In this document: piece by piece, positions 12,930 to 62,459 of the stretch
Numbering within the stretch: position 1 is the first letter of the stretch
Layout: each line of letters begins with the position of its first letter
Origin: Chiloscyllium plagiosum
Lineage: Eukaryota
Length of the DNA: 64,000 nt
Assembly (NCBI RefSeq): GCF_004010195.1
Contig: NC_057755.1
Span: 8,193,082-8,257,081 of the forward strand
Direction: 5' to 3'
Position numbers and translations under genes: made by a program
The notes under the pieces: generated by a model
What the model saw: only the letters and a program-made list of their open reading frames with translations
What the model was told of the DNA's origin: nothing
The model's database searches: none

Positions 12930-13160
12930 CTTTGTCGAGAGTACAGTGCTGGAAAAGCCCAGCAAGCCAGGCAGCATCAGAGGAGCAGGAGAATGGACGT
13001 TATGGGCATCAGACCTTCATCAGAAATGACGGGTCATTTGATGAAGGGCTTATGCCCGAAACGTTGATTCTCCTGCTCCTCGGATGCTGCCTGACCTGCT
13101 ATGCTTATCCAGCACTACACTCTCGACTCTGATCTCCAGCATCTGAAGTCCTCACTTTCA
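12930..13160. mobile_element. Short fold-back (palindromic) Penelope-derived element with mutated hammerhead cores
   Basis: GCTGGAAAAGC..GGCAGCATC..GAGGAGCAGGAGAAT followed by its reverse complement. TTGATGAAGGGCTTATGCCCGAAAC at 13038. Same family at ~15525-15735, ~24975-25180, 45581-46167 and ~59545-59770. Confidence 0.75.
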
Positions 13161-25395: not shown

Positions 25396-25899
25396 TGATT
25401 AGAATCTCTTGACAGATTGAGCCAGTTTTACATAATATGATCATGCCACATAAAGTCTATTATCTCACCTGGATGTTTCCACTGTCTCCAGGTTAGTCAA
25501 AGCCACACCGTGAATGGAACAATATATTGTCAAATGAGCTGTTATTAATTGGGTCATACTCTCCCATCTGGAGTAGAAAGTCATATGCCCGATTCTCACT
25601 CCTGATTCTGGAGTTGGGAATCAAGGCTGATAGTCCACGCACCATTATCTCCCATGGACTTAACTTTATCAAAGTTCAGAACGAGTACAAAATGTTAAAC
25701 GGCATTGTTCTCTTCAGTTGTAGACAAAAATTAAAATGTCGTCCCAGCCCTGGCCTTCCCTGAGCCACATTTCTGTGCAGCTATCATATTTAAGTCACAC
25801 ATTCCCAACCATGGCATGATTCCATCTGGTTTAACTGTCATGCCTCTTGTCCTGATACAAATGCAGTTTAATTCATCAGTCTTATATTGTTCTCTACCT

Positions 25900-26490
25900 T
25901 GTTCTTGATTGCCTTAACTATTCAACTTCCTCCTCTTCTCAACTTCTCAAGCCTTGAACGAATGTCAATCCTCACGATGACTTTGGGTTTGCCCATTCCG
26001 AACCCACGACACCCTGCCTACAAGTTTAAAGCCTAGAGACCTTGGATACTGAACCGCTTCCAATTCAGGCGCAACCCGTCCTGCTGACAAACGTCAATTC
26101 GACACCAGAATACATTCCAACGATCTGAAAATGCGAATCCCTATCCCTGTATCAACTCCTCAGCCATGCATTCATCTGTGCTATTCTCCGACTCCTTCTC
26201 TCACAAGCACATGATTCTGAGCGTAATTCAGATATTAGTGCAGCAGAGGACCAATGTTTTAAACTCCGGCCGAGTTTCCTCTCGTCTCTTGTCAGAACGT
26301 CATTCCATTCAATTCTTATATCATTGATACCAAAGAGTACAAAGACCCCCTGCTGATTTCTCTCCCCTCTGAGAATATTCTAGAACCAGGAAGGAAATGC
26401 ACTATTATAATATCCTGCTGTCGGCTGCAGAAAAATCTATCAGTGCGTCTGACAGAAATCCCTCGTCACCACTGATCACTTGGAATCGGA
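25900..26490 (-). mobile_element. Decayed CR1 ORF1 (esterase) fragment
   Basis: The reverse complement near 26050-26090 encodes DGLRLNWK, matching the DGLHLN motif. Confidence 0.55.
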
Positions 26491-26498
26491 CATATACC

Positions 26499-27620
26499 TG
26501 TGATGATGCTGTCATTTTGACAGGTTATTTTGACCTGATTTTTTTTTGAAAAGAGGTTGGAAGACAATTCTGCAGAACTGGATACTGAAGACGACATGTG
26601 TAAACAACCTGTGAGGCCTTGCGTATTTTGTAACAGCCTGAATAGATGTGGCTAGCTCTCACAGTTCCAGATTTCTGTGTTTTAGTCTTTTGAGTAATAT
26701 CAAGTTTTGTGTCTCGAAAGATTTGGAGCTTCAGTCTCTCTTGAGTGCTCGACTGTTTGAATTTTCTTTTGAAGTTGTTTCCCTCCTGGATTGGAGAACT
26801 TGTGTTAGAATTTGTGTCTTCTTGCTAAAGGACGTATATCTCGGAGATTGCTTTTTTGAAACAGTAAATTAGTAGTAGGTACCGTGCCTATTATTCCGTT
26901 AGGCTTTCAGAGAGTTAGGTTATTCTAAATTTATGTTTGTTTTCTTTGTATTTTAACTATCGTGTTTAAGTAAATTGTGTTTTATTTAACATCGAGGAGT
27001 TTGACCAGATGCATCTTATCTGCATCATGCACTTCAAAAATACCTGCAAAATAAGTAAAATGTTAGGGTAGATGCTATTTTTTTACAACAAATTAAGGGT
27101 GCTTAGTCTCGTCCATTACAAAGTGGGCACACGTTGGGATCAGATTCTGTAAAACTAAGTTGGGGTTCAGGATTATTTTCCTCAAATTCGCCCAGTGGAT
27201 GCTGTTACACTTTTCTGCCTCGTGTGTTCAATTAGATTGTTTTTAAAAGGGTGTACTTTGTGTCGCAAAGTGCTTTCGGTCACGAGGAGTTTCCTGATGT
27301 GGAAGAAGTGAGTTTGGGAGGTTTATAAAAATTAAGCAAAACAACGCTGTTGCAATTGGTAGGCCAACTGGAGTTGGGGTTGCCCCTGTCCATGTGAAAT
27401 GCAATGGCAATTGCAACAATAGCTCGAATTTAAATATGGCAGAGATGCCATTGTAAGCTTGGGGAATGGCTTACATTAAATTGTTAATGAAGCAGCTTGA
27501 ATTATAGAAAAAGGAAAAGGAAAAGATATCAGTTGCAGAACAAAATGAAAGAGAAAATGAAGTTAAGTAAGTTGAATTAGGAACAAAAGCAGACGGAAAA
27601 GCAAAGAGAGCAGAAGAGAG
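26499..27620 (+). mobile_element. Gypsy (Gmr1-like) 5' LTR, degenerate tRNA-Pro PBS and gag start, truncated by a CR1
   Basis: TGTGAT...ATTACA (26499-27120), then AAGTGGGCACACGTTGGGAT resembling the PBS TGGGGGCTCGTCCGGGAT, followed by an E/K-rich gag-like start. Confidence 0.6.
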
Positions 27621-30600
27621 CAGACGATGAGGAAGGCAGAGAGGAGACAGGTGCAAGAGACCCCGGGAAAAGTACCTGTCAGGAACAAGTTGAAACTTTT
27701 GGAAACAGTAGAGAGTAATGACACTGCCAGTTCGCAAGGCGGCCAGGTTTGTCAATCAAAGGTTGGCGCAGAGGCAGAGCGGAAGAGTCGGACATTGCAC
27801 AGAGCTGTGGTAATAGGGGACTCCATCGTGAGAGGAACTGACCGGGGTTTCTGTGGCAGCAGACGGGATTTAAGGATGGTGTGTTGCCTTCCTGGTGCCA
27901 GGGTGAAAGACATCGCGGACAGAGTGCAGGAAATCCGCAAGGACGAGGGTGAAGAGCCAGAGGTGGTGGTACATGTCGGCACAAAAGATGTCGGGAAGAA
28001 GAGGAGGAACATAAAACAGGGGGACTTCGGAGAACTAGGAAGAAGGCTGAAAAGCAGGACGTCTAAGCTGGTTATCTCCGGTTTGCTTCCAGTTCCTTGG
28101 GCTGGTGTGGCCAGAAACAGGGAGATAATGGACTTGAACGTGTGGTTGGGGAACTGGTGCAGGAAGCAAGGATTTAAGTTCTTGGATCACTGGAGTATAT
28201 TTTGTGGTAAGCATGAATTCTACAAGAGAGACGGTTTGCATCTTAATAGGTTAGGAACCAGCATTCTGGCAGGCAGGTTTTCTACTGCAACACCGCTACA
28301 TTTAAACTAAGTAGCGGTGTGGGGGGGCGGGGGGGGAGCGGACAAACTGGATGTTTAAAAAGGAAATGGAAGGGAAAGTTAGGACAAGAGAAGTCAAGAA
28401 AGACAACTGTATCAATGAGGCAGAAAACTCGGAATGGGATCATGCTGTAAGGTTGAGTGAAATAGGGGTTGATGGGAAAATACTATACATGAATGCACGA
28501 AGCATTAGACATAAGATGGATGAGCTTGAGGCTCTTTCGGAAATTGGCAGATACGATATTGTGGGGATAACTGAGATGTGGCTTCAAGTAGACAGGGCCT
28601 GGGAAATGAATATTCAAGGCTACACGTGCTATCATAAGGACAAACTGAAGGGCAGATGGGGTGGGATGGCCTTGTTGGTGAGGGAAATATTCAGTCCATT
28701 GCGCGGGGGGACCGAGAGTCAGGGGATGGAGAGTCAGTGTGGATAGAGCTGCGAAATACTAAGGGTAAAAAGACCGTCTTGGGAATCATCTACAGGCTCC
28801 CAAACAGTAGTCTGGATGTCGGATATAAGTTGAATCAGGAGCTGAAATTGGCCTGTCGCAAAGATATTACTACAGTTGTTATGGGGGATTTTAACATGCA
28901 GGTAGACTGGGAGAATCAGGATGGTATTGGACCTCAAGAAAGAGACTTTGTGGAGTGCCTCTGAGATGGATTCTTAGAGCAGCTGGTGCTGGAGCCGACC
29001 AGGGAGAAGGCAAATCTGGATCCGGTATTGTGTAACGAACCAGAATTGGTCAGAGACCTCGAAGTGAAGGAGCCATTGGGAAGTAGTGACCATAATACAT
29101 TAAGCTTCAATCGGCAATTTGAGAGGGAGAGGGTATAGTCGGAAGTGACAGTACTTCTGTTGAATAAATGGAACTATGGAGCTATGAGGGAGGAGCTGGC
29201 CAAAGTTCAATGGTGCAATACCTTAGCAGGGATGACCGTGGAGGAACAATGGCGGATATTTCTGTGTATAATGCAGAAGTTTCAGGATCAGTTCATTCCT
29301 AAAAGGAAGAAAGATCCCAGGGGGAGGCATGGGCGGTCGTGGCTGACGAGGGAAGTTAAAAAACAGAGAAAGTTAAAAGAGAAAAAGTATAACATAGCTA
29401 AGATAAGTGGGAAAACGGAGGACTGGGAAGCTTTTAAAGAGCAACAGAGGATTACTAAGAAGGAAATAAGCAGAGNNNNNNNNNNNNNNNNNNNNNNNNN
29501 NNNNNNNNNNNNNNNNNNNNNNNNNNNNNNNNNNNNNNNNNNNNNNNNNNNNNNNNNNNNNNNNNNNNNNNNNNNNNNNNNNNNNNNNNNNNNNNNNNNN
29601 NNNNNNNNNNNNNNNNNNNNNNNNNNNNNNNNNNNNNNNNNNNNNNNNNNNNNNNNNNNNNNNNGGCTTGGGAAATCGTGGATGCGTTGGTGATTATTTT
29701 CCAGAGTTCGATAGATTCGGGGTCGGTTCCTGAGGATTGGAGGGTGGCTAATGTTATACCACATTTTAAGAAAGGTGGGAGAGAGAAAGCAGGAAATTAT
29801 AGACAAGTTAGTCTGACCTCAGTGGTTGGAAAGATGTTAGAGTCTATTATAAAGGATGAAATTACGGCACATCTAGATAGTAGTAACAGGATAGGACAGA
29901 GTCAGCATGGATTTATGAAGGTGAAATCATGCTTGACTAATCTTCTTGAATTTTTTGAGGATGTAACTCTGAAGATGGACGAGGGAGATCCAGTAGATCT
30001 AGTGTACCGGGACTTTCAGAAAGCTTTTGATAAAGTCCCACACAGGAGGTGTGTGAGTAAAATTAGGGCGCCTGGTATTGGGGGCAAAGTACGAGATTGG
30101 ATTGAAAATTGATTGGCTGATAGGAAACAAAGGGTAGTGATAAACGGCTCCATTTCGGAATGGCAGGCAGTGACCAGTGGGGTACCGCAGGGATCCGTGC
30201 TGGGACCGCAGCTTTTTACAATATATGTTAACGATATAGAAGATCGTATCAGCAATAACATTAGCAAATTTGCTGATGATACAAAGCTGGCTGGCAGGGT
30301 GAAATGTGATGAGGATGTTAGGAGATTATAGGGTGACCTGGACAAGTTAGGTGAGTGGGCAAATGTATGGCAGATGCAGTTTAATGTGAATAAATATGTG
30401 GTTATCCACTTTGGTGGCAAGAACAGGAAGGCAGATTACTACCTCAATGGAATCAATTTAGGTAAAGGGGCAGTACAGAGAGATCTGGGTGTTCTTGTAC
30501 ACCAGTCAATGAAGGTAAGCATGCAGGTACAGCAGGTAGTGAAGAAGGCTAATAGCATGCTGGCCTTCATAACAAGAGGAATTGAGTATAGAAGCAAAGA

Positions 30601-31080
30601 GGTGCTTCTGCAGCTGTACAGGGCCCTGGTGAGACCACACCTGGAGTACTGTGAGCAGTTCTGGTCTCCAAATTTGAGGAAAGACATTCTGGCTATTGAG
30701 GGAGTGCAGCGTAGGTTCACGGGGTCAATTCCTGGAATGGCGAGATTATCTTACAATGAAAGACTGAAGCGACTGGGCTTGTATACCCTTGAGTTTAGAA
30801 GACTGAGGGGGATCTGATTGAGACGTATAAGAATTATGAAAGGATTGGACACTCTGGAGGCAGGAAACATGTTTCCGCTGATGGGTGAGTGCAGAACCAG
30901 AGGACACAGCTTAAAAATACAGGGTAGACCATTTAGGACAGAGCTCAGGAGAATATGGAGATAAGGCAGGAAGAGGATACTGATTAGGAATGATCTGCCA
31001 TGATCATATTGAATGGCTGTGCAGGCTCAAAGGGCTGAATGGCCTACTCCTGCACCAATTGTCTATTGTCTATTGTCTAA
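27620..31080 (+). mobile_element. Near full-length CR1 LINE (ORF1 SGNH esterase 27627-28310; disrupted ORF2 with APE and RT)
   Basis: ORF1 has VIGDSIVRG, CLPGARV, VHVGT.D and DGLHLN. ORF2 has YMNARS, MGDFN, SDH, GVPQGSVLGP and FADDTK. Tail of CTATTGT repeats at ~31060-31078. Confidence 0.92.
29476..29664. other. Assembly gap (N run) within the CR1
   Basis: 189 consecutive N. Confidence 1.
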
Positions 31081-31189
31081 TAATTATGTTTGCTAATTTA
31101 AAAGAAATCCAAGAGATATGGCTCAGCAATATATAAAAAGCAACTTCGCCCTACTTAATATTGTGAAATTACAAAAAACAAAATCAAGA

Positions 31190-31481
31190 TTTTGCGTGGC
31201 ACATTTCGCACTGCTGCCTAAAAGCGCCAGAGGCCCGGGTTGAATTCCCGCCTCGGGCAACTGTCTGTGTGGAGTTTGCACATTCTCCCCGTGTCTGCGT
31301 GGGTTTCCTCCCACAGTCCAAAGATGTGCAGGTTAGTTGAATTGGCTATGGTAAATTGCCCGTAGTGTTAGGTGAAGGGGGAAGTGTCGGTGTCAGGGTG
31401 GGTTGCTCTTCGGAGGGTCGGTGTGGACTTGTTGGGCCGAAGGGCCTTTTTCCACACTGTAAGTAATCGAATCTAATCTAA
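31190..31481 (+). mobile_element. HE1/V-SINE-type tRNA-derived SINE
   Basis: GGGTTGAATTCCC B-box, core GTGTGGAGTTTGCACATTCTCCCCGTGTCTGCGTGGGTTTCCTCC, and a tail of AATCT repeats. Confidence 0.85.
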
Positions 31482-31974
31482 TTCATATCATTTGTAATTC
31501 TCAAAAAAAAAACTGAGCTGATCATTGAAATCCTTAGACTCCCAGCGGGAGCAATTCTGGTAATGAGGTCTTGGTAAGGTCAGCTATGAAATTCCATTGC
31601 TTCTTTGCTTTTCTTGGAGCGAATTGTACCTCACGTGTGGTCTCAAACAAAACTCCTGCTTTCTCTGTTTCACTGTGTTTTAAGTTTTGTTGTTTTTGAT
31701 GTTTTCCTTAAAGTTCCAAAACTAAAGTAAAAACTTAGGAAAACAGTAATCATTGCTGCAAAATATTGAGGAAACCATGGAAAATACAACTGTTTGAAAG
31801 AACGATCCTGAGAAATTTCAGTGCATTTCACTTTATGTTCGACTGGTATTCCAGCCTATTAGGTGAAACAGTCTCTTTTTATCATATAAATTGCATGCGG
31901 TAACTCGGTTACTCTCAGATGCCTGCTGAAAGGTACTGGCTATTATTAGACACACAGAAGGAAACCAGGACGTA

Positions 31975-32780
31975 CAAGGTCTTGTTGACATGGTGCAAAA
32001 CTAACAACCTCTCTCTCAAGGTCAGAATCAAAAAGAACTGACGATTAACTTCAGATAGAAACGAGGAGAAGACGTCCCCAGCTACATCAATGGAGCGGAA
32101 GTTAAGAGGTTTGAGAACGTCACGTTTCTGGAGTAACCATAACTGACAACATTTCCTGGACTCCCCATGTAAATGTGACCATCAAGAAGGGACAATAACG
32201 CCTCTGCTTCCTCGAGCAACTCAGGAAATTTGAAATGTTTTCAACATCTTTTAAAGATGCATTACAGAAAGCATATTGTTTAAGTTTTCAACCGCCTGGT
32301 GGGGCAACTGCTCTACCCATTACCGTAAGAAACTACTGAAGGCTGTGTCCACGACAGAGACGATCATGCAAGCCAACTGCCCATCCACGGACTCTACTTA
32401 GATATCTCATTACCGCGTAAAAGTTCCCAAAATTATCAAAGACACATTCCACTTTGGTAATGGTGTCCTGCAAGTACTTCTGTCAGGCCGAAAAGTCAGA
32501 ACCTTGAATACATGCATCCACACGTTCAAGAACTACCTATTCCCTCCCGTTGTTAAAGTGCTGAACAGACCCGCTAACTTCAAGTAAATCTGATCTTATG
32601 AATGTTGATCTTGCCTAGCACACGGCCTTGTGAAGTAACCTGTATGCTTTACTCTGTCCAATTTTCTCTTTCATCTTATGATCCACATTTCATTGTGTAC
32701 TGTGATCTACCTATTGCTCTCAACCAAAACTTTTTACTGTACTTAGGTACTCGTGAACAAAAATGAAGTCAAATCAAATT
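31975..32780 (+). mobile_element. 5'-truncated Rex1/Babar-like LINE inserted inside V exon 1
   Basis: WCKTNNLSLKVRIK.ELTINFR..V..VTFL..KKGQ*RLCFL.QLRKF. AAATC-type tail at ~32770. V sequence resumes immediately after. Confidence 0.75.
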
Positions 32781-33289
32781 GGAAGGCTTATTCTGATACA
32801 GCAGGTGTTTGTATAAATTACGTATCCACGTCTTATCAGGCCAAAGAACCCAGCGAAGTACTGTTCACTTTGGAACCGAGAGGCATCTCTTCATCTCACA
32901 CGGCTGTCTCCTTGTGTGCATACATTAGCACACAGAGTTTGAGGAAGTATCTTTTCATTTTTAAAGAAATAACATGCACCACCTCAGGGACTTCCAGGAC
33001 TCATTTCTCACTGTCCGTTTGTTTATTTCAGTCTACTTTTTCACTCCCAGCACGTTGAGGGAACTCTCCAGTCAATCACAATTTCCTTTTGTTCCTGCAC
33101 CATGAACTGGAGCATCATTTCCCTCAGCATGCTTTTTCACTCACCTTTCATTCCCATTATGTATTCTACTTCCAGAATATTCTATCCCTATTTTACAGCA
33201 AAAGAAACAGATTCAAATCATATCAAGGAGATAGTCGAGAAGCTGTTTTCCTTAGTCGAAGGCAAGTGTACATCCCTGTATTCCTGATG

Positions 33290-40875: not shown

Positions 40876-41199
40876 TCATCGGACTGGGCACCATTGAAAT
40901 GACAGCATCATGCGGTGTGAAATCTATAATTGCATTTGGATGTTTGGATTGTCCTCTGGTCAGTCAACGTCATGCGATGCATGGAACAATGCGTTATCAG
41001 ATGAGCTGTAATTATCTCAGTCACAATCTCCCATCTGGGTGAGAAAGTAATTGGTCGGAGTCTGATTCCAGATCCAGGAGGTGGAAATCAAGGCTAATAC
41101 CCCACGCATCATTGTTGAGGGAGCTATGAGATTCATAGTGAACACATCAAATTGAACAGAGTTGTGGTCGTCAGCTGGTAAAAATTATCAAAATGTCTT

Positions 41200-47100: not shown

Positions 47101-47450
47101 AAAAAAAAATCGACACTCACCTGCAGAGAAAATATGCAGAGGAAGGCACAAAGAATAAATTCGACAACTGGCTGGTTTTGAAATTTGAGTTTTTAAAAAT
47201 AAATTGGGTGGTTTATCAGACCAGTATTGCAGAGTGGAAGGCAAACGATAGGTTTAAGAGAATGGAGTTGCAAAGAGTTGTTAAACAATATTCTCTGTTA
47301 GACTTAAAGAATAAAGGTGCTAATTTTTACTTGAAGTAGTGACTTTTGGAATCGTTCTTTGCCTCTATAATTTTCACAGATTACAGTATGGGGTGAAAAT
47401 TTCTGTCTTGCTGGTTTAAATAAGCAGAGTGGTTTTCCCTTGTGGTAACA
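41200..47450 (+). mobile_element. Gmr1-type Gypsy LTR retrotransposon lacking its 5' LTR (gag-PR-IN-RT-RH-3'LTR)
   Basis: gag WSEDLCAMLTQAKLVGRASEAF..PEAHRQQFR (41903-42388); PR ILSDS ~42800; IN SLPRTRNG..MDAST..GLPKKIQSDQGSNF (43500-44190); RT DYEKVNAVTKSDSYPI..FQRLMN..LDDV (44800-45300); RH VSVDA..YSTIEKELL (46200-46600); LTR 46735-47450 (TG..AACA). Confidence 0.88.
45581..46167 (+). mobile_element. Penelope-like element 3' end with inverted 5' piece, inserted between the Gypsy RT and RNase H; intact hammerhead core at 46078-46105
   Basis: RRLEEEHLIFH (GIY-YIG C-terminus). CTGAGGA-A-GGGC-TTTT-GTCC-GAAA-CGTC. Imperfect 16-bp flanking repeat GAACAAT[TT/GT][C/G]AGGAGG (45565-45580, 46168-46183). 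Confidence 0.75.
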
Positions 47451-48419
47451 CCATTCACCGCATGGATTGCAGGACGAGGCTCAACAACACTCAAATCCAC
47501 ACTGAAAGACGTTGGCTATCCCAGTATATATTGGTATCGCCCAGGAAATAGAATCGTGAATTTTCTTTGCTGCAGTAGTTGTTGCAAATTACATGTCCGA
47601 GTCTTGTCACGCCAAAAGACCAAACAAAGCACTGTTTATTTTGTAACTGAGAGGCGCTTCTCCATCTCACATGGCTCACTATTTCTATACATGTAGCAGC
47701 GCACAGCTTTTGAGAAAGAGTTCTTGCAACTACAAAACCTGCATCCAACCCCAGGAACCTTCAGGACATTCAGGACATGTGGATACAGATAACTGAGGTT
47801 CAGGACACGGTTTCTGTGACCAGGGTAAGAATCACAGAATGGGGAGGACAGAAAGTGGAATTCAGCTCATCTTTCCATTCCCAGTGAATTGAGAGAAATA
47901 TCCAGTCAATAGCAATCAGACCTCTTTTTCTCTTATGCACTGACGAATCGTTTTCCTTCACATATTTACTCAACCAACATCTCGTAGTGTTATCAAATCT
48001 GTTTCTCGAACCTTGTCTCAGATAGTCGCGTGTTGCAATGGTTATAAATTGGTTTCTAAGAGAAATGTCTCTCGCCATTCACTAGACTCCAACTTCACCA
48101 CACTCCACCGCCCACCTCGCTAAACCATTAAAGGTGATAGCATTCCAAATGAGCACAAATCATTTTCTTTGAAGATGGTCCAATATCCCACTGGAAGCAG
48201 AGTCTCCTTTTCTGATAAGGTAGCTTTTCATATTCTTGGCAGCTCTGAAGACTTACTATATTATACTAAAAGTCTGTAAGTTCTCCAGATTCTCCACATA
48301 AATAATGTCTTTACACCTTGATACTAGTGTATCACCTTGATATTAGTGTATCACCTTGATACTACCAGAGAACAGTCTCACCAAACAATAAATTTACTGA
48401 TTTCCTTTCTTGTGAAAGT

Positions 48420-56650: not shown

Positions 56651-57170
56651 GTATTGATGCAAGTCTGTATTGAAATTTGCTGCTCTTCCATTCAGGCCAA
56701 CCTATACATTTCAGATAAGAACATCTCGATGTCTAATACTATCCCTCCATCTCCCATTTACACTTTCAATCACTTATCTTCCATCATCTTCAATGTATGA
56801 CCTCTTCTTAATTGCAACCCATTTGATCAATTGTCTTAGCTTCTCTAAAGTATAAAATCCTTCTTGAAATTTGAGCCTTGCTATTAATATCACCGTATCA
56901 TTTATCAATCCACTGGGTCCATGAGAAATGCAGAAATTCCAGACCCACCGCAATGTGATTGCCTCTGAAACGTCCTCTCCCAATTAGACATGAGCAATAA
57001 ATGCGGTTCTACTTGCGATGCTTAACTACTGTTAATTAATAAATTGGAAACACATCTGGACTGCAATAAATTTTAGCCCAGTCTGGATAGGAAATAATTA
57101 AACTAGCAATTACTACTGTCTTCTGAAGAATTGTTTCTCCCTGAAATTTTTGGTTTCTCTGTTTAGGTAT

Positions 57171-57333
57171 AAAGGTAAAATCACACAACACAACCTTGGA
57201 CAGCCACCTGATGAAGGAGCGCCACTCCGAAAGCTAGTGCTTCCAATTAAACCTGTTGGACTATAACCTTATGTTGCGTGATTTTTAACTTTGTACACCC
57301 CAGTCCAACACCAGCATCTCCAAATCATGACTA
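57171..57333 (+). mobile_element. Short Penelope terminal fragment with 12-bp target duplication
   Basis: Flanked by CTGTTTAGGTAT (57159-57170, 57334-57345). Confidence 0.75.
57202..57242 (+). ncRNA. Minimal hammerhead ribozyme motif (Penelope-associated)
   Basis: AGCCAC-CUGAUGA-A-GGAG-cgcca-CUCC-GAAA-GCUA-GUGCUU: intact core, CAC/GUG stem I, palindromic AGCU. Confidence 0.65.
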
Positions 57334-57783
57334 CTGTTTAGGTATGCACTTGTACACCCTGGATATTACTGCAGCATTCATTCCAAATTTGGCACGACTG
57401 CTCTATTCCTCAGTCCTGCCCTTGCTCTTTCATTTACTTATCCAAATGTGTTTTGAAATTTGCTCTTATTCCACTCAGACCACTCTTTCAGACAGTACAC
57501 TCCCGATCATAAGATAGTCGATGTAGAAAAAGCTCTCATCGTCTCCAGTTTACACAGAAAACAAATAATCTTCCATCACCTGCGCTGTCTGGAATCTTGT
57601 TACTGCCAACCTAATTTAAGAATTGTCTTTGATTATCCAAACTGTCCAGTCCCTCTTAAAATGTGAAGCCTGCTAGCAACACCGCCGTGTCATTTATCAT
57701 TTCAATACGTCACTGAGAAGTATAGCGATGTGGAGCTTACGTTACACAGCAAATAGTGTAGGGGCAATGGGATAGCAACCGGA

Positions 57784-57819
57784 TGTGGTGTATTTAACCA
57801 TAAACTGCCTTCACAGCTG
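57784..57819 (+). promoter_or_regulatory. V-gene promoter motifs: Runx TGTGGT (57784-57789) and E-box CAGCTG (57814-57819)
   Basis: Positionally conserved, about 55-90 bp upstream of the leader ATG at 57872. Confidence 0.5.
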
Positions 57820-57871
57820 TCAGTGGACTGCATTGCATTCAGTGAAGGAGCCAGCTCTAAATGAAAGCATC

Positions 57872-58739
57872 ATGCTCCATGAAGTCTTTTGTCTCATCTG
57901 GATGTTTGCACTGTCCCCAGGTTAGTCAAAGTCACACATTAAATAAAATAATAGATTGTCAAATGTGTTAGCTAACTCGGTAGCACTCTGTGATCTGAGT
58001 GGAAAGTGTGAGTCCCGTCTCTCACTCTTGATCCTGAAACTGGAAGTAAAGGCTAAAACTCCATTTTCAGGTTTTAAGGAAGCTGTAGACTTTTAGAAGA
58101 TCCATAGCGCATACTTAATTCTAAACAGAACTGTACACTTTAGTTTGACACAGTGATTACTGTGTCAGAGAAAAGCAGTTCCTGCTCCAAAATTTCAAGT
58201 TGGATGAACGCCATAAGAAGTGCATGCAAACTTATCATTAAACATTCCTGTTAGTGGATCTTCCTTCAGTCAAAACAATTAGGATGAAATTGAACAGTAA
58301 CCTGACAATTAAGTAAAAAAAAATGCTTGTAACATAGTCTAAAATGATCTTATCTTGTGACAGTATTTTTTTTTTTGGTGACCGGGAATGCCTTGCTTAA
58401 ATGCAATCGTTGTGCTGATGAATTCTTGTCAGAAATTTTAATTTATTCCACTTTACATTTTGCAGGACGTCTGGCCTCTTACGTGGAGCAGTCTCCATCG
58501 ATTGTGTCGATTGCAGCAGGGGACTCGGAAGAAATCAGCTTACAGCTATATGTACTGGTACCGACAGCAACCCAACCGGCCAATAGAAGTTTTATTCTAC
58601 TCTGTTGGTGAAAAGTCAATTACAAATTACACATCCGAATCTTATCGTGCTAAAAGGCCCAGTGAAACTCTGTTTAGTTTGGAACTGAAAGGCACCTCTC
58701 CATCTCACACGGCTGTCTATTTCTGTGCATGTAGTAGTG
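57872..58739 (+). pseudogene. TCR beta-like V gene 3 (leader 57872-57920, V exon 58466-58739), frameshifted by a 20-nt deletion
   Basis: Leader MLHEVFCLIWMFALSP G|GT, acceptor TTTGCAG|. V reads GRLASYVEQSPSIVSIAAGDS/-/KKSAYSYMYWYRQQPNRPIEVLFYSVGEKSITNYTSESYRAKRPSETLFSLELKGTSPSHTAVYFCACSS. Confidence 0.92.
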
Positions 58740-58778
58740 CACAGTGTTAGAGATATTATCTTTGCAACTACAAAAACC
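58740..58778 (+). other. Consensus V(D)J recombination signal sequence, 23-bp spacer
   Basis: CACAGTG + TTAGAGATATTATCTTTGCAACT (23 nt) + ACAAAAACC. Confidence 0.97.
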
Positions 58779-59544
58779 TGTATTCGAGAACAGGGATGTT
58801 CAGGACTCTTTTTCCCACCAACAGGTGGGGACAGACGATTGATGTTCAGAGCACATTTTCTGTGACAAGAGAGAAGACTTCGCTCTCTGGTAGCGAACGA
58901 GCCAGATTTAATGAGTAAGTTCACTATAATAGCTTCATTCTCGCCAGTAGAGAGAGTGATAATTCCAGAAACAATCTGAATGATCCCCAAAAAAACGTCA
59001 AACTTTATTGATGTGCGGATTTCTTGCAGGCTGTGTTTAATAAAATGTAATTGGCTGTCAAAATGTTTGGAAACCACCTGCTTGCAAAACTATCAAGAAT
59101 TCTTCCAGCAACTAGTCTCCCCTTTTTACAAACTGAGGTTCAGTTGAAATCTTTAAAAGGCAGGTTCAGAGCTTCTTCCACAACATGGTCGAGACGTACC
59201 TCCACTCAAAAAGCAATGTTGTTCACCACTCTCATTCCACTGAAATAGGCGAATAATCTACTCAACAACATTGACAGGTGCATCGCACCACAGTCCAATC
59301 CTATATTAAACAAAAGTGCAAACACAACTCTCCATTATTGGATCATTCTTATGACTGAAGATTCTTTCACGTCACCTGTGAAACATCAGAACAGCCCCTC
59401 CTGCTCTCATCTTTCTTTGACAGTGCATGTTCCCTCAGTCCATCACAGTAAAGTAATTCGAAAAAACGCACAGTCACAAGTTGGTGGCATCAGTCTCACG
59501 GCATGAAACAAGGAAGAACTTTGACACAAGACTGTTGCATATTT

Positions 59545-59770
59545 CAGATATGGAAATGTGTTGCTGGAAAAGCGCAGCAGGTCAGGCAGCATGTAGGGAA
59601 CAGGAGAATCGACGTTTCGGGCATTAGCCCTTCTTCAGGACAAGGGCTAAGAAGGGCTAATGCCCGAAACGTCGATTCTCCTGTTCCCTAGATGCTGCCT
59701 GACCTGCTGCGCTTTTCCAGCAACACATTTCCATCTCTGATCTCCAGCATCTGCAGACCTCACTTTCTCC
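59545..59770. mobile_element. Young fold-back Penelope-derived element; intact hammerhead core on the minus strand at 59611-59638
   Basis: Near-perfect inverted arms ~59550-59635 and ~59650-59735. Minus strand reads CUGAAGA-A-GGGC-UAAU-GCCC-GAAA-CGUC. Confidence 0.8.
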
Positions 59771-61152
59771 TGTTGCATATTTCACCAAAGTGCAGGATCC
59801 TATGGAACAGACTATAACTATAAAGGTGCTCCTGGCAACATCATTTCTACAGATGGGATCAGCACAGTTGTGCGCTGTGATCAAACTCTGCCTGTCACAT
59901 GTTCCTGGTGTCAGACTAAAGTGTCTTTTAAAATGTGTCATTGAAATCCGTTTCAAGTAACTAATTGTGCATTAAAAGGAACAGTTCAAATCCTGTTCAA
60001 CTCATTGTGATCATGAAAGTGTGTTTAAGTGCTAAATAAATCTCTTTGACTGATACCCTTTTGAGAATGAAATCTGCCATTCCAACCAGGTCTGGAGTCA
60101 ATGTAACACCAGACAAGTAACAATAATTCTGACTTTGAAATAGCCCAGCAAACCAACACTTCTGCAAAATAGTGACACGAACAGTAGATCATGAAAATTC
60201 AAAAAGACATCTCTTAACCACCTCCTCAAGTACAAAGACAGCTGGGGGAGATGGCCTAGTCTGATTATAGCTGAACTGTTCTGGGAAAACGAATACTGTT
60301 CCTGGCACAAATGTTCAAACCTGCCGCAGCAAATGCTGCAGCTTGAATTCAATAAACAGGAATGTAGAATTAAGAGTCTAATGATAATGAAACAATTGTC
60401 GATTTTTTTGAAAAAAAGTACTCACGTACGAATGTCCTTACTTCATCTGGCATCCAATGTGACTCCAAACCCACAGTAATATAATTGCTTCTGAACTGAT
60501 GTCTGGGCAATTAGGGTTGGGAAATAAATGTTGCTCAGATGATGGAGCCTCATCCTATGATTGAATAAAAGCCAAAATACCTAAATGTAGGCCAGCCAAG
60601 CCACCAGCATTCCAAGAAGGAATTCTCTCTCGAGAAGGATTACTTCTCCCTTAAATCTCTGGTTTATCTGTTTCGGTGTATATTTATAGTTCCTGAATAT
60701 TCTTACAGTATTCTTTCCAAATCTGGCCACATGTTTTTACCTCGTTTCTACTATTTCTCTTTTCATGTATTTATGAAAGCCTGTTTGGAAGTTTCTTGTT
60801 ATTCCACACAGACCACTCTTGGTGACAATGCATTTTAGATCTGCATCTTGATGTATTAAATATTTCTGCTCTTATCCAGTTAATGACGATCCAATTTGCC
60901 TTTTCTTATCCAGACAATATAACCCCTTCTTAAATTTGGGCCCTGCTATTAAAACCGCAATGTCATCTATAAATGCAATTAGACGATTAGAAATGCAGAG
61001 AGATGGAATCTACACTTCACAGCAAATGGTATTGAGAAATAAGATAGTACCTTCATATTGTGTATCTAATCAGATGAAACAGAGGAACCGCCTTCACAGG
61101 CATTACTTTACTGCACTCCTTTCTCAGGGAACCAGTGCGAAGTGACAGTATC

Positions 61153-61995
61153 ATATTATATGATCTTCCTTATCTCGTTTGGATTTTTGCACTATCCCAG
61201 GTTATTCGAACGTACGCAATGAATGCAACAATACAATGTTACATATGCTGTAGATCACTCAATAGCACTCGCCCATCTGGGTTGGAAAGTCTTCGGCCTG
61301 AGTTGCACTCCATGTCCTGGAGTTGGAAATCAAGGCAGACTACTCCACTACTCATTGCTGGGCAGCACTGCACTTTTACAAGATTCATAATGAATGTATA
61401 AAGATTGCAAAGTCCTCTTCAGCCGGCTTCAGGTCATCCTCCAAAATTCGAAACTGGAACAATGTTTGGAAAGAGACATATGCACTGGCCATTAGATATT
61501 GCTTTTATTGGCTCTTCCTTTGCTCAAAACTTAAAAGTAATCTGACATTTTCTAAAAAAAATGCTCGTAACATGTAGTAAATTGTTGTTGTATTGCAACA
61601 AGTTTTATATTCCCATAATTATTTTGTTTAAATGCAGCCATTGTGCTGAGGAATGCATGTCAGAAATTTAAGTCTTTTCCATTTTACATTCGATAGAAAT
61701 TTGTCTTTCTACATAGAGCACCCTTCTTCCATTGTGTCAATTAGAAGAGAGGACTCGGATACACTCAAATGCACACTGAAGAAGACAGCACACAGTTATT
61801 GGTTCTGTCACGAGCAGCAACCAAAATGAACAATAGAAGGTTTATTTGACATCAAATCTTACCAGGCTAAAAGACTCAGTGAAAAGCTGTTTACATTGCA
61901 AACGAGAGGCGCTTCTCAGTCTCACAAGGCTGTCTAAATCTGTATATGTAGCACCACAAATTGTTTGATACAGTTTATTTGCAGCTGCAGAAGCC
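61153..61995 (+). pseudogene. TCR beta-like V pseudogene 4 (leader 61153-61200 with ATG>ATA; V exon 61697-61956; decayed 23-RSS 61957-61995)
   Basis: ILYDLPYLVWIFALSQ|GT. V reads YIEHPSSIVSIRREDSDTLKCTLKKTAHSYWFCHEQQPK*TIEGLFDIKSYQAKRLSEKLFTLQTRGASQSHKAV*ICICS. CAAATTG-23 bp-GCAGAAGCC aligns without gaps to the RSS at 58740. Confidence 0.85.
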
Positions 61996-62459
61996 TGTAT
62001 TCGATAATAAGGACTTTCATGACTCATCACCACAAACAGGGAGGAACAGACTATTGACGTTCAGAGCATATTTTCTGTGAGAAGAAAGATGACTTCACTA
62101 TCTGTTAGGTAAAGAGCCAGATTTTGACATTAAATTCAATATTTTATCCTCATTCTCTCCAGCGTAGAGAGTGATAATTCCAGAACAAGTCTGAACAAAT
62201 GCCAAAAACAGCAAATTTCATTCATGTACGAATTCCTGGCAGGTATTTCTGTGTTTAATGAAATAAAAACTGATTGGTGTGTGTAGGAATCAATTACTCA
62301 CAAAACGCACGAAGAATCTCTCCAGTATGTTCTGGAGACGATTTCTGTGCCCATATTAAGAACCAGAGAATGTGACGGGCAGAAGATGAAATTCAGAACG
62401 TCATTTCTATCCGAGCGCTTTGCAAGGATGCGTGTGTTGACTTCAATCGACATTGTTCG

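What the first reader, a model, noticed from the sequence alone, without database searches (positions are those of the whole stretch)
57872..58778. V gene with a perfect RSS, disabled by a single 20-nt microhomology deletion
Leader, GT/AG sites, the rest of the V frame and the RSS are intact. Paralogue 4 has TACACTCAAATGCACACTGA (61760-61779), which is missing here between 58529 and 58530 and is bounded by a GA microhomology. Restoring it gives ..GDSDTLKCTLKKSAYSYMYWYRQ.., recovering the first Cys and the frame with no stops. Inference: a recent inactivation, a segregating null allele or an assembly error. The segment could still be recombined by RAG into non-productive joins.
Basis: partly seen in the sequence, partly recalled or inferred. 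Interest (0 to 1): 0.7.

Follow-up and report, generated by a model that had tools for sequence, protein, structure and literature searches.

The report
Shark T-cell gene knocked out repeatedly
This shark T-cell receptor beta V gene is broken by a 20-base gap in this assembly but is whole, spliced and rearranged in other samples of the species, while further samples carry other knock-out deletions, so the gene is likely being lost several times over within one species.

Summary
The gap is real in the window: a TRBV gene of a bamboo shark (species label) with leader, splice sites and a perfect 23-RSS lacks 20 nt behind 58527, loses the first Cys and stops at 58609. It is not a species-wide pseudogene: 8 of 8 public runs laid (7 same species, 1 sister species) carry the 20 nt, three RNA-like runs splice the leader, and one holds an in-frame V-D-J join. 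So the window shows a rare null allele (about 0.6) or an assembly slip (about 0.35); the source reads were not available. The GA microhomology is confirmed but expected by chance 8-17% of the time. New: 3 of 4 genomic samples carry a different lesion, a 19-nt deletion across the RAG cut site that removes the heptamer, and one of them also a 3,217-bp deletion fusing the gene to dead paralogue 4. Segregating V-beta nulls are known in human and mouse. A germ-line RAG scar as origin of the 19-nt allele is open but weak (3 of 22 deletions span the cut site, 0.89 expected, P=0.055, post hoc).

The parts
57872..57920 (+). Leader exon of the TRBV gene (16 codons + 1 nt)
   Evidence: spliced to 58466 in X9, X10, X15; nurse-shark TCR-beta leaders are alike
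57921..58465 (+). 545-nt GT..AG intron
   Evidence: joint 'skips 545, GT..AG' in 3 of 3 RNA-like runs
58466..58739 (+). V exon, TRBV family here called A (V-set domain; 66-68% to nurse shark TCR-beta V)
58527..58530 (+). Site of the 20-nt gap of the window (2-nt GA microhomology); removes the first conserved Cys and shifts the frame
   Evidence: the 20 nt are present in 8 of 8 runs
58609..58611 (+). Premature TGA of the window allele
58740..58778 (+). Consensus 23-RSS (heptamer 58740-46, nonamer 58770-78); the only 0-mismatch RSS found in this locus
58735..58753 (+). 19 nt missing in samples X4, X5, X7: last 5 coding nt, whole heptamer, 7 spacer nt (2-nt TA microhomology); no spare heptamer at 12 or 23 nt from the nonamer
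   Evidence: present in X1, X9, X11
58659..61875 (+). 3,217 bp inferred missing on one X7 haplotype, fusing the 5' part of this V to the dead 3' end of paralogue 4
   Evidence: record 14 (59 nt, depth 10.3 against 24.2); predicted 3 mismatches = 3 reported, loose end unique at 61894
56722..57899 (+). Unresolved joint in X7 from the leader exon back to 56722-56751 (about half depth); a duplication or other rearrangement that hits the leader
   Evidence: record 11
61086..62013 (+). Paralogue 4: dead family-A V (stops, 33-nt internal deletion, decayed RSS)
47448..47744 (+). Paralogue 2 V exon, pseudogene (leader-like piece at 40897-40972)
25443..32957 (+). Paralogue 1 in pieces: leader at 25443, V fragments at 31863-31973 and 32804-32957

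Best explanation
This is a working T-cell receptor beta V gene that is whole in some individuals and knocked out in others, and the window's 20-nt gap is likely one rare loss-of-function allele among several independent ones. The intact allele is spliced and joined by V(D)J recombination to the D and J segments about 92 kb downstream (shown). The window allele keeps its RSS, so RAG would still recombine it, but every product would stop at 58609 and the cell would need its other chromosome or another V (inferred). The 19-nt allele has no heptamer and would not recombine; the fusion allele ends in a dead paralogue (lesions shown in contigs, effects inferred). The deletions likely arose by ordinary double-strand-break repair or slippage and drift under weak constraint, because family relatives and a larger second TRB locus can stand in (inferred): birth-and-death evolution caught before fixation.
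For: 20 nt present in 8 of 8 runs from 5 studies, the sister species included, so whole is ancestral. Leader-V splice in 3 of 3 RNA-like runs; the X15 contig runs from V (58737) into 4 nt of the D core, one added base and untrimmed J2, in frame with F-G-Q-G. 19-nt heptamer deletion in 3 of the 6 runs that cover the site (3 of 4 genomic runs of the species), at full depth in X4 and X5 and half depth in X7; fusion joint in X7. For a real window allele: other nulls already segregate in this gene; 20 deletions of 5-33 nt lie in 27 broken V copies of the two TRB loci, so this is the usual way these genes decay; no tandem repeat or base run at the site; nearest N gap 29 kb away; the window haplotype has 3 private events in 1.6 kb, within the range of the other haplotypes.
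Against: No run shows the 20-nt deletion (0 of 8). The window also stands alone at 58212-13 (against 5 of 5 runs that cover it) and at 58929 (against 6 of 6), which could mean a locally error-prone consensus. All 8 runs are assembled contigs, which drop rare variants, so homozygosity and allele counts are soft; X4 and X11 were read to 84% and 86%. RNA-like runs cannot show a frameshift allele well if its message decays (inference). Relaxed constraint was not measured.
Confidence: 0.6

Rival explanations
1. The 20-nt gap is an assembly error; the assembled animal has an intact gene. The 19-nt and fusion alleles of other samples stay real.
For: 0 of 8 runs carry it; the window is also private at 58212-13 and 58929, where the other runs that cover them agree with the sister species; otherwise it equals the intact X1/X9 haplotype but for 59097.
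Against: No repeat, run or gap at the site; deletions of this size are the norm in these loci; only one copy of the region in the genome, no second haplotig.
Confidence: 0.35
2. The 19-nt allele is a scar of RAG cutting at this perfect RSS in a germ cell, rejoined by microhomology with loss from both the coding and the signal end (an open-and-shut joint that became heritable). This concerns the second allele and is compatible with the best explanation.
For: The deletion spans the coding/heptamer border in every register and hits the only consensus RSS of the locus. Two fixed pseudogenes show the same kind of lesion: G000:C46 near 8314030 (23 nt) and G000:C41 near 18946700 (32 nt). Germ-cell rearrangement of shark Ig genes is published (PMC2193156, abstract and first part of the Discussion read).
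Against: Fixed copies alone: 2 of 20 against 0.78 expected, P=0.18; with both alleles of this gene 3 of 22 against 0.89, P=0.055, and the test was set up after seeing the lesion; 33 of 335 positions are spanned three or more times, 18 of them far from the RSS. Non-triplet gaps only give P=0.05 and 0.01, a further post-hoc cut. Loss of 14-16 nt from the signal side is unusual for a RAG signal end (recalled). No added or palindromic bases at the joint. Heptamer loss may simply be tolerated or favoured.
Confidence: 0.12
3. Loss of this V is favoured by selection (for example to escape a superantigen or self-reactivity), which is why several independent nulls are common.
For: At least two independent nulls in 4 genomic samples, about 6 of 8 chromosomes if contig depth reflects genotype; independent V-beta deletions in wild mice were read as balancing selection (PMC2187673, abstract).
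Against: Four samples from two studies, relatedness unknown; family A is decaying in general (at most 1-2 of the 7 other copies in this locus look intact); the intact allele is still in use.
Confidence: 0.15
4. The gene is a fixed pseudogene of the species.
For: Only the window sequence.
Against: 7 of 7 same-species runs carry the 20 nt; one holds a productive V-D-J join.
Confidence: 0.01

Closest known systems
Nurse shark TCR-beta chains ADW95889.1 and ADW95896.1 (Ginglymostoma cirratum)
   Same: Same V family (66% and 68% over the 3' V part), same leader type, C exon 70% to the C of this locus. The beta-V2/V3 primers in PMC5931798 (passages) name the same Y-V-E-Q-S-P start.
   Different: These are expressed chains; no germline alleles or nulls are given for them in what I saw.
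Segregating non-functional TRBV alleles in human and V-beta deletions in wild mice
   Same: One V gene functional in some individuals and null in others (PMC4657264, abstract; PMC2187673, abstract; RSS-spacer allele PMC2191499, search listing only).
   Different: Here at least two, likely three, structurally different knock-outs meet in one gene of a cartilaginous fish, one of them removing the heptamer itself.
Germline-joined Ig genes of sharks (RAG-like activity in germ cells)
   Same: Heritable change at an RSS border in a shark antigen-receptor locus (PMC2193156; PMC2193153, passages).
   Different: Those are V-J or V-D-J joins between two segments, with P nucleotides, and were not polymorphic among the sharks sampled; the 19-nt allele is a local deletion at one RSS of a TCR locus, polymorphic, with no RAG-specific mark.
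TRB locus of Chiloscyllium punctatum in Supplementary Table 3 of PMC10322711
   Same: Its layout (C1 and D1 on minus, three minus V's, two plus V's, D2, J's, C2 on plus) matches G000:C41 18.5-19.0 Mb.
   Different: That sheet lists one scaffold with two C genes; the window's locus on G000:C46 has a third C gene (44-49% to the C41 ones) and has no counterpart there by layout.

Membership tests
TRBV gene segment | V-set Ig domain with leader exon and phase-1 intron | tested here: met
   Pfam V-set E=4.9e-11; splice seen
TRBV gene segment | 3' RSS with 23-nt spacer | tested here: met
   0 mismatches; missing in the 19-nt allele
TRBV gene segment | Upstream of a D (12/23 RSS, G-rich core), J's and a TRBC exon in the same orientation | tested here: met
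   D at G000:C46:8344248-62, J's 8344756-8351009, C 8359953 with 70% to nurse shark TCR-beta C; the D-core label is recalled
TRBV gene segment | Found in V-D-J rearrangements | tested here: met
   One in-frame join in 1 of 3 RNA-like runs; X10's contig ends at 58737
Functional V allele | Open frame with first Cys, Trp and second Cys | tested here: not met
   Window allele lacks the first Cys and stops at 58609; met for the allele in the runs
Segregating null allele (window deletion) | Seen in reads of at least one individual | tested here: inconclusive
   0 of 8 runs; none known to be the assembled animal
Microhomology-mediated deletion | Junction microhomology above chance | tested here: inconclusive
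   2 nt for both deletions; 2 nt or more occurs at 17% of positions over 1.6 kb, 8% (20 nt) and 16% (19 nt) in the exon
Germ-line RAG product (19-nt allele) | Break at the coding/heptamer border | tested here: met
   Spans 58739|58740 in all registers
Germ-line RAG product (19-nt allele) | P or N nucleotides, or a partner RSS-bearing segment | tested here: not met
   Plain deletion, no added letters, no partner
Germ-line RAG product (19-nt allele) | Excess of such lesions at RSS borders | tested here: inconclusive
   3 of 22 against 0.89, P=0.055, post hoc
Germ-line RAG product (19-nt allele) | RAG expression in germ cells | not testable with these tools
   No germ-cell data laid

The most novel reading that the evidence does not exclude
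RAG still cuts in the shark germ line at TCR loci: the common 19-nt allele is a heritable open-and-shut scar at the best RSS of the locus, still segregating, and similar scars killed two other TRBV copies. Germ-line RAG would then delete V genes from the repertoire of living populations, starting with those that have the best signals.
Probability: 0.12. Interest if true: 0.75.

Novelty: new member of a known kind. Interest (0 to 1): 0.42.

Why it matters
A V gene with a working allele and several independent nulls in one species gives a direct handle on birth-and-death evolution of the T-cell repertoire in the oldest lineage with TCRs: animals differ in whether they can use this V at all, which can be typed by one PCR. 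It also warns that this reference allele would be annotated as a pseudogene although the gene is in use. If the heptamer-deleting allele came from germ-line RAG, it would be a still-polymorphic and so datable case of a process known so far from fixed joined Ig genes.

Tried and rejected
Fixed pseudogene: rejected. Second haplotig with the intact allele in the assembly: none. 'No RNA holder listed' is no evidence; X9, X10 and X15, labelled DNA? or ?, turned out to be spliced. Hairpin at 58716-29/58738-51 as seed of the 19-nt deletion: present but no stronger than shuffles, z=-0.25. L006 was aligned in the wrong orientation; that row is void and was redone. The automatic 'intact' test passed the window's own broken V by mistake, so its deletion was added by hand; paralogue 1 and two partial C41 pieces were left out of that count (62 segments tested), one broken copy did not cover the border, and 11 of the 20 gaps are multiples of three and may be family length variation. 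One search's local alignments missed the border-spanning deletion at C41:18946700. Protein search at near length found nothing. PDB search of the C exon did not separate Ig from TCR. Earlier scan notes: none. Ten paper searches listed no paper on germline alleles of this gene; three shark TCR papers asked for by id were not held, so absence from print is not shown. Passages of PMC11754216, PMC6795676, PMC11372145 and PMC10464911 held nothing on it. Of PMC10322711's 19 supplements, 11 were searched and part 1 of 5 of file 16 was read; the rest may bear on the second-locus remark.

Full report
Observation. The window holds a V gene with leader 57872-57920, a 545-nt GT..AG intron, V exon 58466-58739 and a 23-spacer RSS with no mismatch at 58740-58778. 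Against paralogue 4 it has one clean 20-nt gap behind 58527, and the same gap against three more family members. The gap removes the first Cys and the frame ends at TGA 58609-58611, upstream of the RSS.

What locus. 200 kb downstream and 100 kb upstream were fetched. On G000:C46 lie 18 V-like segments in one orientation (8 of the window's family A, 1 single, 9 of a family B), one D with 12- and 23-RSS at 8344248-62, J segments at 8344756-8351009 and a C exon at 8359953. The family and the C exon match nurse-shark TCR-beta chains. A protein from another contig of this genome is labelled Chiloscyllium plagiosum. So this is a TRBV gene of a bamboo shark. Few V's of this locus look intact: A8, B1, B4, B6, B7, perhaps A6 (no leader found in 1.8 kb upstream) and the single V (open frame, weak RSS). 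The gene in question has the only mismatch-free RSS found there.

Is the gap real? 24 runs were listed and 8 laid on 57600-59200. All 8 carry 20 extra nt behind 58527: X1, X4, X5, X7 (genomic, at most 4 samples, 2 studies), X9, X10, X15 (same species, 2 more studies) and X11 (another organism, one substitution, silent in frame). X9, X10 and X15 skip the intron exactly, so they are RNA. X15's contig leaves the V at 58737 and goes on with 4 nt of the D core, one added base and the untrimmed second J, in frame with its F-G-Q-G: a productive rearrangement. X9's contig is spliced and reads on through the RSS, as a sterile germline transcript would (inferred; a contig is not one molecule). The gene therefore works, and whole is the ancestral state. 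The deletion itself was seen in 0 of 8 runs. For a real rare allele: no repeat or run at the site, nearest N gap 29 kb off, 20 deletions of 5-33 nt in 27 broken V copies, other nulls in the same gene. For an error: the window also differs from every covering run at 58212-13 (5 of 5) and 58929 (6 of 6). I put it at about 0.6 to 0.35. The GA microhomology holds with the true letters, but 2 nt or more is met at 17% of positions in the region and 8% in the exon, so it says little about mechanism.

Other null alleles. X4, X5 and X7 lack 19 nt at 58735-58753: the last 5 coding nt, the heptamer and 7 spacer nt, with TA on both sides; no CAC is left 12 or 23 nt from the nonamer. X1, X9 and X11 keep them; X10 and X15 do not cover the site. 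In X4 the depth of that contig (11.1) equals the sum of its two haplotype bubbles (5 + 6.5), in X5 it is 41.5 against 24.4 for a neighbouring piece, so both look homozygous; in X7 it is 11.1 of 24.2. The other half of X7 is a 59-nt record of depth 10.3 that is explained exactly as a joint from this V (to 58658) to paralogue 4 (from 61876): 3 mismatches predicted and 3 reported, and its loose end occurs once in 364 kb, at 61894. That is a 3,217-bp deletion between paralogues (a conversion tract is not excluded), ending in a dead V. X7 has one more joint at about half depth, from the leader back to 56722-56751, which I could not resolve. If contig depth reflects genotype, about 6 of 8 chromosomes of the four genomic samples are null; contigs drop variants, so this is soft.

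How it likely works. Intact allele: normal V-to-DJ joining (shown once). Window allele: RSS intact, so cut and joined, but always stopped before the junction (inferred). 19-nt allele: inert to RAG (inferred from the need for the heptamer's CAC, established knowledge). Fusion allele: dead end (inferred). Family A is mostly pseudogenes here, and another intact, expressed family-A V and about 27 intact-looking V's lie in a second TRB locus on G000:C41, so weak constraint and drift are the simplest cause. Selection for loss, as proposed for wild mice (PMC2187673, abstract), is possible but untested.

Germ-line RAG? The 19-nt deletion straddles the exact RAG cut site, and sharks are known for germ-cell rearrangement of Ig genes (PMC2193156, abstract and first part of the Discussion; PMC2193153, passages). 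As a control I aligned 62 V segments of both loci: of 20 deletions of 5 nt or more in broken copies, 2 span the border (0.78 expected, P=0.18); with both alleles of this gene 3 of 22 (0.89, P=0.055); non-triplet gaps only, P=0.05 and 0.01. The test is post hoc, other parts of the exon are hit as often (33 of 335 positions spanned three times or more), the joint has no P or N bases, and a local hairpin is no stronger than shuffles. The idea stays open at about 0.12.

Comparison and novelty. Functional and null alleles of single TRBV genes are known in human (PMC4657264, abstract; PMC2191499, listing only) and mouse. Ten searches listed nothing on alleles of this shark gene, but key shark TCR papers were not held. 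It is a new member of a known kind. The window's gap alone is ordinary or an artefact; the pile-up of independent knock-outs beside a working allele, one of them on the RAG cut site, raises the interest to about 0.4.

Noticed in passing
G000:C41:18.52-18.97 Mb (L039, L052-L101) against G000:C46:8.22-8.37 Mb: Two unlinked TRB loci with three D-J-C clusters: C41 has two (C at 18642009 minus and 18778136 plus) and 48 V-like pieces, in the layout published for C. punctatum (PMC10322711, Suppl. Table 3); the window's locus on C46 is a third cluster, the one closest to nurse-shark cDNAs, with no counterpart in that table. The D cores are near identical, the C exons 44-49% alike.
   Followed up: partly
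G000:C41:18707899-18708195 minus (L039): An intact family-A V in the second locus; contigs of it occur in all 8 runs, at depth 418 in X9 where it reads through its RSS. A broken family-A copy lies at 18840783.
   Followed up: partly
G000:C46:8390793-8391078 minus (L020): An inverted, frameshifted C1-set exon remnant 30 kb downstream of TRBC, only 29-44% like the TRB C exons.
   Followed up: partly
G000:C46 near 8314030-8314380 and G000:C41 near 18946700-18947060: Two V pseudogenes whose heptamer is removed by a 23-nt and a 32-nt deletion across the coding end.
   Followed up: yes
window 57899 to 56722-56751: Joint in sample X7 from the leader exon back upstream at about half depth; structure unresolved.
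   Followed up: partly
window 59544-59740 and 12934-13127: Near-perfect inverted pairs of a short interspersed repeat, head to head (94% and 83%), one of them 800 nt downstream of the RSS.
   Followed up: no
G000:C41:18881212-18881761: A V gene 95% like an intact neighbour, split by a 186-nt insertion 25 nt before the heptamer.
   Followed up: no
window 58212-58213 and 58929: Letters private to the window against every run that covers them, the sister species included.
   Followed up: partly
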